NCBI RefSeq assembly: GCF_056746865.1
Contig: NZ_CM163382.1
Length of the DNA: 64,000 nucleotides
Strand: one strand, 5' to 3'
Shown here: piece by piece, positions 15,001-18,000 of the stretch
Numbering within the stretch: position 1 is the first letter of the stretch
How the letters are laid out: each line of letters opens with the position of its first letter
Made by a program: the position numbers

Positions 15001-18000
15001 GACCACTTGATAATTTCCGGCCAGGTCTTCGTTCGTAGCTGGTTGTCGGTGTTGGCGGTCACCACGACCTTACAATCCTCGCAAGTGGACATGCCCCAGT
15101 TGATGAGCATTGAGATGAATGCGGATTTACCAATACCGTGACCAGAAGCACGTGCCAGCATAAGCGGCTGATAACGCGTCTCTGGATTCTGCAGGTGATC
15201 ACGTATCTCTCGGAACGCATCGGCCTGCCACTGACGTGGACCGGTAGCATGTGCCAGTTCAGTCCCCTCTTCCCCCCAAGGGAACGCATAGAGGGCATAG
15301 CCAAGCGGATCGTGAGTGAACCCTGCAATATCTTCGATTAACTGCTCTTCAGGAGATAACGCTGCATCTGTCACTGATTACCATCCTGACGTTCTTTGAG
15401 TCGCTTCCTGGCTGCCGCTATGCGATCAGCAATTGTCACATTCACATTAACATCCAGTCGTTCTTTGAATGCGTTGACGTCGACGTGCTTACCAATCAGT
15501 TCGAGGTTCTTCACCTTGTCAGGCCATTTAATTTTTTTGAGGATTGTCTCTATCGAATCCTCGTTCATGTTCATGATGGTCGATGACAGATCAAAGCCGC
15601 TAAGCGTAGTGCGCCAGATTTTCGGCCACTCGCGGATTGGCTTAAGGCTCCCATCGTCGTTGAGGATATCAATCACGTCCATCTGGTCGATCTCCACCAG
15701 GCGCATGAGAACGTAATCAGCACTGACGCGCATTCGTTTGTTGCGCTCCTCCATCAACTCGGCAATCCGTTTCTGAATGCGTTCATCGCGCATCATGACA
15801 CTGGCTTTAACTGCCGCTGTATTTGGGGAGAATCCTGCATTAATCGCAGCCTGAGTCTGGTTTTCAGGCGTTTTGATGTATGACTGGCAATAAGCCTCCT
15901 GCATTGCTGTTAGTGGCTTAAATTGCGTTGATTTGCGTTTATAGGCTTTAGGTTCAGCAGGCATCATAACCACCGTGGTAATAGTTACCGTTGTGGTAAT
16001 AGTAACATGCAAAATAAAGCCGCCATAGTTGGCGGCAGTATTCAAAGTCCATCAAATTCATCGTAAAAACTCTCGTCAAGATACCCTTCCCATTTACCGC
16101 GAATGAAAATTACATCCTCGCCGCAAGGGTGCTGACTGTCGATAACTATATCCCTCCTGGCGCAACCATACTTATGCATGAGAAATTTAACCTCTTTCGG
16201 AAAATTTGCTGAGTTATCTCTCATATCTTCAAGGTCGTAGCGTATTTTTGGCATAACACCTTCGTGACATGTCACACTATTAATTTCGTTTCATGCCAGC
16301 CTTTAGTCACCCAGCATTGTGAGTCACCATTACACGGACATGAATTAACTGGAACTCTCTCGCCGCACTTACCGCAACGTTTTCTACTGATCGATTTTAT
16401 ACGCCCGCGCACGCGTGCATCATCCTGGCGGATCAGTAACGCTATATACTCACCAAATTCGTAAGGCGCACGCCCGGGGCGACGCGCGGCACAGTTACGC
16501 TCAAGCATTTCAATTTCCTGAGCATCAAGCACAATCTCCAGCTTACGTACACCGGATGCAGCTTGTCTGGCTCTCTGAGCGGCTTTGCGCTCTGCTGCTG
16601 ATTTAGCCATCAATATTCACCTTTATCGCGTAAACCTTTACCGGTTTATCTCCGAAGTGCGGATGTGTGATTGTCTTGATTTCATATCCGTCATACGGGA
16701 CGTCAATTCTACGACTGGAGTCGTCGCGCTTCGGATATCCCTTTGTGATAATCAGTCGGTCATAATCCCTGAACATAATTCGCTTATTCCAGTAGTCATT
16801 ACACAGGCGATACTCTTCCGTTTTCTCTCCGCGAATCATGGCATCGAAGTATTCACCTTTGACGGCAAGTTGCAGGTTAGCCACGGTTAACCTCCTTCGG
16901 CGGTTCTGGTAGAGGCATCCAGTACAAGGCGTTCCCTAACCACGATAAAGTGCCGTCGCTCAACTCCACGTATTCCCCTTGTACCTGTCCTGCCATATAC
17001 TCGCCGTGCTTTGAATAAATTAAAATCCAATCATCTTGAGCGGGCATTCGCTCACTACAGCTTATCCAACTATCCGGAGTTACCGGATAGTTGCCAGCCA
17101 GTCTACGCAAAACAGCCTTAACAGCCTCAATACGGTCATCATCGCAATTTTCCAGCGTATCTATGCGGTCGAGCATGATGATGGCGTTATCAATATCAGG
17201 ATTGCCAGTCCACTCATTATCGCGATTGGATTCGGCAGCCTGGTTGCCAGATGCTGGCTGATTGTCGGCTTGGCTATAGCTAACAGCACGGCAGGCATCC
17301 TCTACGCCTTTAACTGCATCTGCACAGTAGTTATAGCGATTGCATTCCACTAACTTCTGCTTGAGATTTTCAATTGCTTGCGCGACATCAGCCTGTATTG
17401 GCGGAACGGCTGTTTGCTCTCGAACGTCATTAGTCGCTATCGGTTCTGCTGCCAACTGACTGGCATATTTGTTAATGGTAACGATAAGCTCTTGCTCGGC
17501 CTCATCCAGACAATCACCGATACCTCGCCTGTCACCGTCAAAATCATCGAAATCGGCACGAATCCTGGCAACCTCCCGGATTGCGGACAACACTTCACCA
17601 GGAATAAGCGGAGAGTTGCCCGATAGTACATTCTGCTCCAGCGATGCCAGAGCAATTCGTGCCAGTTCTTCCGCTTCTTCTGCTGGCAGTACAACGTTGC
17701 TACCAGGTCCGTATGTTTCGCGCCACTGCTTGATTGTCAGTAGTCGCTCTTTGGTAATAGTGATCATGCCGCGTTTCCTTCTTTCTTATTAACAATTACA
17801 CCGTCATATATTTCATTAAGGTGCCCTCTTAACTCCATGCGCCTTAATGCAGATAACATGTAATCGCATTCAACCTGCTTATTTCCAGTAAATGGCTTAT
17901 CGTCAGGATTACCCCAACAGCAATTACCCTTGGGCCACCCATGTACTTTCCGTACTCTTCCGTTAACAACGTGAAGTAATCCCCAGCCAGGTGGTAAATC

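What the first reader, a model, noticed from the sequence alone, without database searches (positions are those of the whole stretch)
15968..16041. Terminator plus operator-like repeats directly in front of the terminase small-subunit gene
On the minus strand a strong hairpin, GCCGCC-aactat-GGCGGC with TTTATTTTG (16036-16010), is followed by GGTAAtagTTACC-gttgt-GGTAAtagtAAC (15977-16006), which includes a perfect TTACC-N5-GGTAA site, and then the TerS start codon. This suggests late-gene expression requires antitermination or a dedicated activator acting here. The upstream Cys-rich 113-aa protein is a speculative candidate regulator.
Basis: partly seen in the sequence, partly recalled or inferred. 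Interest (0 to 1): 0.45.

Follow-up and report, generated by a model that had tools for sequence, protein, structure and literature searches.

The report
Prophage repressor operators guarding terminase genes
The hairpin and repeats in front of the terminase gene are real, but they are an ordinary transcription terminator followed by two copies of this epsilon15/phiV10-type prophage's own repressor-binding site, a module already annotated in the GenBank record of phage epsilon15.

Summary
A strong intrinsic terminator (16036-16010, minus strand, -14.5 kcal/mol) is followed by two tandem 15-bp palindromes: TTACC-N5-GGTAA at 15985-15999 (perfect) and at 15967-15981 (one mismatch). The second abuts the TerS start codon.

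The window holds an epsilon15/phiV10/SPC32H-type (Uetakevirus) prophage. The same palindrome has 7 perfect copies in the prophage and none in the flanking chromosome. It forms OL and OR around a repressor homologous to SPC32H Rep (E 3.5e-42). It also follows the post-cro and post-P terminators and precedes the portal operon.

The epsilon15 GenBank record already annotates this terminator and this site ("repressor").

Across 35 haplotypes the site-A half-sites are invariant and its spacer varies. The motif is absent from phages that carry the 113-aa protein family but have other repressors. So the repeats are most likely repressor operators, not sites for a late activator or for the Cys-rich protein.

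No sigma-70 promoter lies between terminator and TerS in this lineage. TerS/TerL expression therefore probably depends on terminator read-through once Rep is removed.

A side finding is more novel. The 113-aa family travels with a different palindrome, GTGAC-N2-GTCAC.

The parts
16010..16036 (-). Intrinsic (rho-independent) terminator: stem GCCGCCA/TGGCGGC, loop ACTA, tail TTTATTTTG. It ends the early-right operon (... ASCH gene, 113-aa gene, 70-aa ORF).
   Evidence: Homologous hairpin annotated as a terminator in epsilon15 (stem_loop 39646-39672); phiV10 carries the same hairpin and places a terminator feature at its record end, 39104.
15985..15999 (.). Operator site A: perfect TTACC-acaac-GGTAA, starting 19 nt after the terminator stem.
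   Evidence: Half-sites are invariant in 35 distinct haplotypes while the spacer takes 7 forms. The homologous site is annotated 'protein_bind: repressor' at 12..27 of epsilon15.
15967..15981 (.). Operator site B: TTACC-acggt-GGTTA (one mismatch), 18 bp from site A centre to centre. It contains the Shine-Dalgarno GGTGG (15974-15970) and ends on the A of the first ATG.
   Evidence: It carries 1-2 mismatches in every lineage that has it and is lost in the Klebsiella lineage.
15371..15967 (-). Terminase small subunit gene (Terminase_2). The true start is the ATG at 15967 or 15964, not the TTG at 16045.
13899..15374 (-). Terminase large subunit gene, overlapping the TerS stop.
16042..16254 (-). 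70-aa ORF (phrog_1541, function unknown) in a variable slot. It is absent in phiV10 and epsilon15 (phiV10 keeps a remnant 'MHDEFDGF*'). The slot holds a LexA-box plus UmuD-like gene in BUCT554 and a phrog_2100 gene in a Klebsiella phage.
16272..16613 (-). 113-aa Cys-rich protein (phrog_536, labelled 'transcriptional regulator'; epsilon15 gp49, N15 gp46 family).
16264..16275 (.). 12-bp perfect palindrome GTGACATGTCAC overlapping the stop codon of the 113-aa gene. A second copy lies at 13813-13824, next to the terminator after TerL.
13813..13824 (.). Second copy of GTGACATGTCAC, abutting the bidirectional hairpin 13829-13848 downstream of TerL.
23119..23195 (.). OL. Two perfect operators (23119-23133 and 23181-23195, 62 bp apart) after the rep terminator. 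PL (TTGACA-17-AATTAT) lies between them, and the proximal operator sits on the transcription start.
22359..22421 (.). OR. Operators at 22407-22421 (perfect) and 22359-22373 (one mismatch), between rep and the cro-like gene and overlapping the best PR candidates.
22477..23061 (+). Immunity repressor, homologue of SPC32H Rep (tetrameric, antagonised by an antirepressor).
   Evidence: 5d50_A, E 3.5e-42, full length. The segment NLVNRW is invariant in 5 Reps.
22022..22036 (.). Operator (one mismatch) 15 nt after the post-cro terminator.
20058..20134 (.). Two perfect operators (20120-20134 and 20058-20072, 62 bp apart) after the post-P terminator. They flank or overlap promoter candidates, and the proximal one abuts the ATG of the next gene.
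12823..12837 (.). Perfect operator upstream of the gp3-like/portal operon (homologue of epsilon15 site 2931-2947).

Best explanation
The region is the boundary between the early-right operon and the terminase operon of an epsilon15/phiV10/SPC32H-type prophage.

An intrinsic terminator ends the early-right transcript. Nineteen nucleotides later come two adjacent copies of the phage's immunity operator, TTACC-N5-GGTAA. These are most likely bound by the prophage's SPC32H-type Rep, a tetramer that binds palindromic sites.

In the lysogen, terminator and bound repressor together keep TerS and TerL silent. This includes silencing transcription that enters from the upstream genes and from the variable 'moron' slot.

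After Rep is inactivated by the antirepressor, terminase is made in one of two ways. Either transcripts from the upstream Rep-controlled promoters read through the terminator, or a weak local promoter with site A in its spacer fires. That local promoter is degenerate in this E. coli lineage but good in the BUCT554 lineage.

Shown here: the sequence elements, their genome-wide distribution, their conservation pattern, and the presence of the cognate repressor gene. Inferred: that Rep binds these two sites, that it blocks transcription here, and the route by which TerS is expressed. The confidence given is for the identity of the repeats as repressor operators plus a terminator; the route of TerS expression alone I would put at about 0.5.
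For: (1) The prophage belongs to the Uetakevirus group. The region is about 97% identical to phiV10-like phages, and gene order matches epsilon15 and SPC32H.

(2) The motif is strongly enriched and confined to the prophage: 14 hits against 1.13 expected, with 7 perfect copies in the prophage and 0 in the chromosome.

(3) The same palindrome makes up OL and OR around rep and cro, overlapping strong promoters (PL scores 12.5, PR 11.8; background median 4.0).

(4) The repressor is a full-length homologue of SPC32H Rep (E 3.5e-42). The segment NLVNRW of its N-terminal region is invariant in five phages that share the operator. According to PMC9638917, which discusses Kim et al. 2016, SPC32H Rep binds palindromic sites as a tetramer.

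(5) The epsilon15 GenBank record annotates the homologous site as a repressor-binding site and the hairpin as a terminator.

(6) The conservation pattern fits a protein-binding site. Site-A half-sites are invariant in 35 haplotypes, while the spacer and linker vary.

(7) The motif tracks the Rep family, not the 113-aa family, and not the TerS family: phiES15, with a 60%-identical TerS, lacks it.

(8) Tandem sites 17 bp apart also form OR in epsilon15 and SPC32H, so an 18-bp tandem is a native Rep arrangement.

(9) The module 'terminator, then an operator 15-20 nt later' recurs after rep, after cro and after P.

(10) There is no sigma-70 promoter between terminator and ATG. The best score after the hairpin is 4.05, and the only higher one, 6.09, lies inside the hairpin.

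(11) In relatives, SOS-controlled or other accessory genes sit directly upstream and read towards TerS. In BUCT554 there is no terminator, so the operators are the only barrier.
Against: No binding or transcript data for this site could be consulted. The primary papers on epsilon15 and SPC32H are not in the library, and the epsilon15 'repressor' features are themselves predictions.

The cro-like protein could bind the same sites.

Single operators in front of the portal, tailspike and lysis operons lie about 70-80 bp upstream of the conserved promoter-like blocks. That is not a classical repression position, so the protein may do more than occlude promoters.

Site B is never perfect and is absent in the Klebsiella lineage, so the tandem arrangement is not essential.

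How TerS is transcribed in this lineage is unresolved.
Confidence: 0.75

Rival explanations
1. One reading: the repeats are the binding site of a dedicated late activator or antiterminator, possibly the 113-aa Cys-rich protein, which is needed to express the late genes past this terminator.
For: A strong terminator lies directly before TerS, with no sigma-70 promoter after it. The 113-aa gene is the last conserved gene of the early-right operon and is labelled 'transcriptional regulator' by PHROGs and RefSeq.
Against: The repeat motif is the OL/OR operator motif. It has 0 perfect copies in four phage lineages that encode the 113-aa family. That family instead co-occurs with GTGAC-N2-GTCAC. ZF40 and N15 carry their own Q-like or late-activator genes besides the homologue. 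The other late operons have their own conserved promoter-like block (CATATGTGGTT plus a -10), which is missing here. The 113-aa protein matched no Pfam or NCBIfam family and no solved fold.
Confidence: 0.1
2. The repeats are a packaging recognition site (pac or cosB-like) bound by the small terminase subunit, as in phages where such sites lie at or in the terS gene.
For: The repeats lie immediately before terS. Several Uetakevirus records start their numbering here, although this may be a convention only.
Against: The identical palindrome occurs 8-11 times per genome, including OL and OR, whereas a pac site should be unique. A phage with a 60%-identical TerS (phiES15) has no such site. Site B is dispensable in the Klebsiella lineage.
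Confidence: 0.04
3. The repeats act at the RNA level. The nested hairpins of the two palindromes sequester the Shine-Dalgarno sequence and limit TerS translation.
For: In the minimum-free-energy fold, the GGUGG Shine-Dalgarno pairs with CCAC of site A.
Against: The fold of the repeat region is no better than chance (-11.3 kcal/mol, z = -1.0; 33 of 200 shuffles fold as well). The arms never co-vary: they are invariant, as expected for sequence-specific protein contacts. There is no Rfam match. Any structure follows automatically from two tandem palindromes.
Confidence: 0.06
4. Roadblock-assisted termination. Rep bound 19 nt after the hairpin stalls RNA polymerase on the U-tract and raises termination efficiency, so removing Rep itself raises read-through into terminase. 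This is a refinement of the best explanation.
For: The stem-to-operator distance is 19, 19, 20 and 15 nt in four modules of this prophage, and 19-20 nt in epsilon15. There is no local promoter. From general knowledge, protein roadblocks halt RNA polymerase roughly 13-20 nt upstream of the obstacle.
Against: The modules may be paralogous copies: the terminator stems and flanks after rep and before TerS are similar. The fixed spacing may therefore be inherited rather than selected. The BUCT554 lineage has the operators without a terminator. There are no transcript data.
Confidence: 0.2

Closest known systems
Salmonella phage epsilon15, GenBank AY150271.2: stem_loop 39646-39672 (rho-independent terminator) and protein_bind 12..27 ('repressor; lysogeny') in front of the terminase small subunit
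   Same: It is the homologous element: the same hairpin (GGCCGCC-gactat-GGCGGC plus T-run), the same TTACC-N5-GGTAA site followed by a second one-mismatch site, and the same position before TerS.
   Different: In the window a 70-aa ORF separates the terminator from the 113-aa gene. The mismatch in site B is in the right half (GGTTA) rather than the left (TTACT). The epsilon15 record annotates only one of the two sites and does not annotate its own OR sites.
Salmonella phage SPC32H Rep/Ant switch (Kim and Ryu 2013; Kim et al. 2016; PDB 5D50, 5D4Z)
   Same: The window's repressor is a full-length homologue. SPC32H has the same terminator-plus-operator arrangement before TerS and the same OL and OR motif. 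As summarised in PMC9638917 and PMC9986798, Rep is a tetramer that binds palindromic sites and is released by the antirepressor.
   Different: What those papers report about sites outside the immunity region could not be read here. In SPC32H, site B has two mismatches.
Mycobacteriophage L5 gp71 'stoperators', and the multi-locus CB operators of N15 (own knowledge; N15 operators are listed)
   Same: One immunity repressor has many sites scattered over the genome in short intergenic spaces. Some lie away from promoters and could block elongating polymerase.
   Different: From own knowledge, L5 sites are asymmetric and orientation-biased, and about 30 in number. Here the sites are symmetric palindromes, 8-11 per genome, and most lie at or near promoters or just after terminators.
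Lambda-type late control (Q antiterminator acting at PR' and tR')
   Same: A strong terminator lies upstream of the late morphogenetic genes, and a small regulator-like gene ends the early-right operon.
   Different: There is no promoter or pause module upstream of the terminator. The 113-aa protein has no Pfam, NCBIfam or solved-fold match. The other late operons have their own promoter-like blocks.

Membership tests
Uetakevirus (epsilon15/SPC32H-type) immunity operator | 15-bp palindrome TTACC-N5-GGTAA | tested here: met
   Site A is perfect at 15985-15999; site B has one mismatch at 15967-15981.
Uetakevirus (epsilon15/SPC32H-type) immunity operator | The same motif forms the operators flanking the repressor and cro genes of the same genome. 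| tested here: met
   OL at 23119 and 23181; OR at 22407 and 22359, overlapping the PL and PR candidates.
Uetakevirus (epsilon15/SPC32H-type) immunity operator | The cognate repressor is encoded, and its DNA-reading helix is conserved among phages that share the motif. | tested here: met
   Rep at 22477-23061 matches 5d50_A with E 3.5e-42. NLVNRW is invariant in 5 Reps. The motif is absent from phages with other repressors.
Uetakevirus (epsilon15/SPC32H-type) immunity operator | Physical binding by the repressor, and repression in vivo. | not testable with these tools
   This needs EMSA or footprinting, ChIP and reporter assays. The primary papers are not held.
Intrinsic (rho-independent) terminator | A GC-rich hairpin immediately followed by a U-tract, at the 3' end of a transcription unit. 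| tested here: met
   7-bp stem with 6 GC pairs, 4-nt loop, tail UUUAUUUUG, -14.5 kcal/mol, z = -4.1. It lies 6 nt after the stop of the 70-aa ORF.
Intrinsic (rho-independent) terminator | RNA 3' ends form at the U-tract. | not testable with these tools
   This needs Term-seq or in vitro transcription.
Lambda-type Q antitermination module | A Q-family protein, plus a promoter with a Q-binding element and pause site upstream of the terminator. | tested here: not met
   The 113-aa and 70-aa proteins have no Pfam or NCBIfam hit. There is no conserved promoter upstream of the hairpin: the one candidate, TTGACG-17-TTTGAT, is not conserved in phiV10.
pac/cosB terminase recognition site | A unique site (or a local cluster) at terS, specific to the TerS family. 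| tested here: not met
   There are 8-11 identical sites per genome, including OL and OR. The site is absent before the related TerS of phiES15.
Structured RNA leader or attenuator | A fold better than chance, with compensatory changes in relatives. | tested here: not met
   z = -1.0 for the repeat region. There is no covariation, because the arms are invariant. There is no Rfam hit.

The most novel reading that the evidence does not exclude
The 113-aa Cys-rich protein (phrog_536; epsilon15 gp49, N15 gp46, ZF40 gp22) may be a sequence-specific DNA-binding protein whose site is the palindrome GTGAC-N2-GTCAC.

Every phage lineage examined that encodes the protein carries the palindrome. Epsilon15, SPC32H, ZF40, N15 and Vibrio K308 have 3 copies each, BUCT554 has 4, and a Yersinia P2-like phage has 1. 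About 0.03 copies per genome are expected.

One copy usually sits at the stop codon of the gene. In Uetakeviruses the copies sit next to the terminators that end the early-right, terminase and structural operons. In Vibrio K308, one copy lies 19 nt before the TerS start.

Separately, the Rep operator placed 19 nt after the hairpin may act as a roadblock that strengthens termination.
Probability: 0.2. Interest if true: 0.55.

Novelty: already known. Interest (0 to 1): 0.2.

Why it matters
For the finding itself, little changes. It is an instance of a regulatory module already annotated in phage epsilon15, in a prophage type matched in about one fifth of complete E. coli genomes (1093 of 5426).

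Three practical points follow.

First, the RefSeq/PGAP start of this terminase small subunit (224 aa, TTG) is probably 26 codons too long and swallows the regulatory region.

Second, the immunity repressor of these phages appears to hold every rightward transcription unit directly, through 8-11 operators. This bears on how SPC32H-type antirepressor induction switches on late genes.

Third, the 113-aa protein family now has a testable candidate recognition sequence.

Tried and rejected
Primary literature. The epsilon15 genome paper (PMC2698709) and the two SPC32H Rep papers (PMC3807360, PMC4983836, and their DOIs) are not held. Only secondary descriptions could be cited. The ZX5 paper (PMC9782041) shows by qPCR that repressor overexpression shuts off holin and endolysin transcripts. 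It maps no operators, and the terms searched for genome termini found nothing.

The 113-aa protein. It has no Pfam or NCBIfam match. The AlphaFold model is moderate (pLDDT 73), with three helices and a poorly defined Cys-rich tail. Foldseek against the PDB gave nothing below E = 1.7. Reading it as a ribbon-helix-helix fold plus a zinc ribbon is only my impression from the sequence pattern.

Searches for more distant relatives. Using search for related loci with TerS, with a Klebsiella TerS and with the 113-aa alignment returned almost only close relatives, because just the best 80 are kept. No heteroimmune Uetakevirus was found, so operator/repressor co-variation within the genus could not be tested. 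The cross-family presence/absence test was used instead.

Local promoter. A simple -35/-10 weight matrix found none in the window, phiV10 or epsilon15 lineages. A candidate upstream of the hairpin (TTGACG-17-TTTGAT, inside the 70-aa ORF) is not conserved in phiV10 and would fire straight into the terminator.

RNA-level function. Rejected on the fold z-score, the lack of covariation and the absence of an Rfam hit.

Coordinate mapping. An early mapping through locus L001 was wrong by 463 bp in the immunity region, because the window is not colinear with strain MS20659 there. It was corrected using the window's own ORFs.
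Full report
**What is there.** On the minus strand the sequence reads: stop codon of a 70-aa ORF, then GCCGCCAACTATGGCGGC plus TTTATTTTG (16036-16010). After that comes CATGTTACTA, TTACC-ACAAC-GGTAA (15999-15985), CTA, TTACC-ACGGT-GGTTA (15981-15967), and finally TGATG, the TerS start.

The hairpin is picked up by the terminator scan. It folds at -14.5 kcal/mol with z = -4.1.

It is better described as two adjacent 15-bp palindromes.

**Where the window comes from.** The 1-kb region is 100% identical to E. coli MS20659. Matches occur in 1093 of 5426 complete E. 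coli genomes. Among phages it is about 97% identical to phiV10-like Uetakeviruses and more distantly related to epsilon15, SPN1S/SPC32H, Tyrion, BUCT554 and Klebsiella prophages.

In the closest genome the prophage sits next to guaA and has the epsilon15 gene order. The phage reads on the window's minus strand. The window is not colinear with MS20659 in the immunity region, so all coordinates below come from the window's own ORFs.

**The start of TerS.** PGAP and the phiV10, PAS61 and PAT1 records start TerS upstream of the hairpin (TTG 16045 in the window). That would place both the hairpin and the repeats inside the gene. Four observations argue against it.
- The extra codons simply translate the operator sequence.
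- In BUCT554 the frame is closed by TGA and TAG just upstream.
- The epsilon15, SPC32H, Tyrion and BUCT554 records start at the ATG. Tyrion also annotates the GGTGG ribosome-binding site.
- The Terminase_2 domain begins at residue 19 of the 198-aa form.

**The repeats are copies of a genome-wide operator.** TTACC-N5-GGTAA has 14 matches in the window with at most one mismatch, against 1.13 expected. All 7 perfect copies lie in the prophage part and none in the 36 kb of chromosome. Their positions are:
- two after the rep terminator, flanking PL (23119 and 23181, 62 bp apart);
- two between rep and the cro-like gene (22407 and 22359);
- one 15 nt after the post-cro terminator (22022);
- two after the post-P terminator (20120 and 20058, again 62 bp apart), the second abutting the next ATG;
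- the two in front of TerS;
- one before the portal operon (12823).

PhiV10, epsilon15, BUCT554 and SPC32H show the same layout, with further sites before the tailspike and lysis genes.

**Prior annotation.** The epsilon15 GenBank record annotates seven such sites as 'protein_bind: repressor'. One of them is at 12..27, directly before TerS. The record also annotates the preceding hairpin as a rho-independent terminator.

**Which protein binds.** The gene between OL and OR (22477-23061) is a full-length homologue of SPC32H Rep (5d50_A, E 3.5e-42). Its N-terminal region keeps the segment NLVNRW in all five phages compared. Secondary sources state that SPC32H Rep binds palindromic sites as a tetramer and is released by the antirepressor Ant (PMC9638917; PMC9986798).

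In epsilon15 and SPC32H, OR itself contains two sites 17 bp apart. The 18-bp tandem before TerS is therefore a native arrangement for this repressor.

- Phages that encode the 113-aa family but have other repressors (ZF40, N15, Vibrio K308, Yersinia vB_YenM_42.18) have 0 perfect copies of TTACC-N5-GGTAA. Four Uetakeviruses have 8-11.
- A phage with a 60%-identical TerS (phiES15) has no such site before terS. This also weakens a pac-site reading.

**Conservation pattern.** About 90 related loci give 35 distinct haplotypes. The half-sites of site A never change, while its 5-nt spacer takes seven forms and the linker five. Site B always carries one or two mismatches. In the haplotypes with a single mismatch, it lies in the right half in E. 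coli phages and in the left half in Salmonella and Enterobacter phages. In the Klebsiella lineage site B is gone.

The repeat region's RNA fold is no better than shuffled sequence (z = -1.0). No arm positions co-vary, and nothing matches Rfam. The constraint is therefore on double-stranded DNA sequence, as expected for an operator.

**How TerS is likely expressed.** A simple -35/-10 matrix scores PL at 12.5, PR at 11.8, the post-P promoters at 9.3-10.4 and the pre-portal region at 9.2. The background median is 4.0 and the 99th percentile is 10.0. After the hairpin and before the TerS ATG, the best score is 4.05. The only higher score in that stretch, 6.09, lies inside the hairpin. PhiV10 and epsilon15 behave the same way (3.3-4.1).

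The BUCT554/L077 lineage differs. It has GTGATA-18-TAAAAT (10.2), with site A exactly in the spacer and site B over the start region.

The most economical reading is that the ancestral design was a Rep-repressed terminase promoter insulated by an upstream terminator. In the E. coli lineage that promoter has decayed. TerS and TerL then depend on read-through from the upstream Rep-controlled promoters, the nearest being at about 20100-20141. This step is inference.

**Why a lock here makes sense.** The slot upstream of the terminator is variable. It holds a 70-aa ORF in the window, nothing in phiV10 or epsilon15, a LexA-box promoter plus a UmuD-like gene in BUCT554, and another small gene behind a LexA box in a Klebsiella phage. 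These accessory genes read towards TerS, and at least the SOS-controlled ones can be active while the prophage is repressed.

A terminator, a bound repressor, or both would stop such transcription from reaching terminase. In BUCT554 there is no terminator, so the operators are the only barrier.

The distance from terminator stem to operator is 19, 19, 20 and 15 nt in four modules. That would place a polymerase stalled by bound Rep on the U-tract, so Rep might strengthen termination. This is a hypothesis only. The modules could be paralogous copies, with the spacing simply inherited.

**The 113-aa protein.** It belongs to phrog_536. It is highly conserved in Enterobacteriaceae: the 120 closest of 699 relatives are at least 77% identical. 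It also occurs in ZF40, N15 (gp46), phiKO2, P2-like Yersinia phages and Vibrio phages. ZF40 has a separate Q-like gene and N15 a separate late activator. The family is therefore not a general late regulator. The structure prediction and fold search were uninformative.

A different palindrome does travel with this family. GTGACATGTCAC overlaps the stop codon of the gene in the window (16264-16275). It recurs next to the terminator after TerL (13813-13824).

In the wider form GTGAC-N2-GTCAC, it occurs 3 times each in epsilon15, SPC32H, ZF40, N15 and Vibrio K308, 4 times in BUCT554, and once (plus a one-mismatch neighbour) in the Yersinia phage. About 0.03 copies are expected per genome. Among 62 full-length Uetakevirus loci, the copy at the stop codon is perfect in 60 and the copy after TerL is perfect in 45.

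In ZF40 the palindrome lies 2 nt after the stop codon, and in N15 it overlaps the stop. In Vibrio K308, one copy lies 19 nt before the TerS ATG. In Uetakeviruses the three copies lie at the 3' ends of the early-right, terminase and structural operons, each close to an intrinsic terminator and at the edge of a variable region.

This suggests that the 113-aa protein recognises this palindrome. What it does there is unknown.

**Other recurrent element.** The promoter regions before the portal, tailspike and lysis operons, and after P, share a block CATATGTGGTT(T/A). In the first three it lies about 7 nt upstream of a -10-like hexamer. The pre-TerS region lacks this block. That is one more reason to think terminase is not driven by the same kind of promoter as the structural genes.

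**Verdict.** The label 'operator-like' is right, but the operator is the immunity repressor's. The site is one of about ten in the prophage, and the module is already annotated in epsilon15. The call for an activator is not supported. Dependence on read-through remains open. The link to the 113-aa protein is not supported for these repeats, although that protein acquires a plausible site of its own nearby. Interest in the finding as given is low. The side observation on phrog_536 and its palindrome is the part that may be new.

Noticed in passing
window 16264-16275 and 13813-13824; L010 (epsilon15) 2142, 19517, 39612; L261 (ZF40) 5125, 7622, 14944; L263 (N15) 28550, 33237, 39269; L260 (Vibrio K308) 21342, 33227, 35942; L264 (Yersinia) 11708: The palindrome GTGAC-N2-GTCAC (GTGACATGTCAC in enterobacterial phages) occurs 1-4 times, usually exactly 3, in every phage lineage examined that encodes the 113-aa phrog_536 protein. 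About 0.03 copies per genome are expected. One copy usually sits at or right after the stop codon of that gene. In Uetakeviruses the copies sit beside the terminators that end three rightward operons. It is a candidate recognition site of this uncharacterised protein family.
   Followed up: partly
window 12778 and 20085 (minus strand); L010 2991, 19943, 24754, 35956; L011 3311, 20924, 24742, 35119: A conserved block CATATGTGGTT(T/A) recurs in the promoter regions before the portal, tailspike and lysis operons and after gene P. In the first three it lies about 7 nt upstream of a -10-like hexamer; at the post-P promoter the candidate -10 overlaps or directly follows the block. It occupies the -30 to -20 region, where a normal -35 is weak, which suggests an activator or an unusual promoter class. 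It is absent before TerS.
   Followed up: partly
window 15968-16045 (minus strand): The RefSeq/PGAP model of the terminase small subunit (WP_001525347.1, 224 aa, TTG start) and the phiV10, PAS61 and PAT1 records (which also begin upstream of the hairpin) extend the gene across the terminator and both operators. Comparative evidence favours the ATG at 15967 or 15964 (198 or 197 aa).
   Followed up: yes
window 16042-16254; L006 1150-1546; L007 1150-1473: The slot between the 113-aa gene and TerS is a variable insertion point. It holds a 70-aa ORF (phrog_1541) in the window and only a remnant 'MHDEFDGF*' in phiV10. In BUCT554 it holds a promoter with a LexA box (TACTGT-N8-ACAGTA) driving a UmuD-like gene. 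A Klebsiella phage has the same LexA-box promoter driving a phrog_2100 gene.
   Followed up: partly
window 13160-13236 (+ strand): A tRNA-Arg(UCU) gene lies between TerL and the portal operon, on the strand opposite to the late genes. SPC32H has a tRNA-Arg at the same place, so it is phage-borne rather than an attachment site.
   Followed up: no
window 20058-20134 and 23119-23195: Two operator pairs have exactly the same 62-bp spacing, and this spacing is kept in phiV10, epsilon15, BUCT554 and SPC32H. Each pair brackets a promoter. This fits one Rep tetramer bridging two sites about six helical turns apart.
   Followed up: no
window about 19000-23100 compared with L001: The window is 100% identical to E. 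coli MS20659 over the 1-kb query but is not colinear with it across the prophage: there is a 463-bp offset by the immunity region. The window therefore comes from a different, mosaic relative.
   Followed up: no
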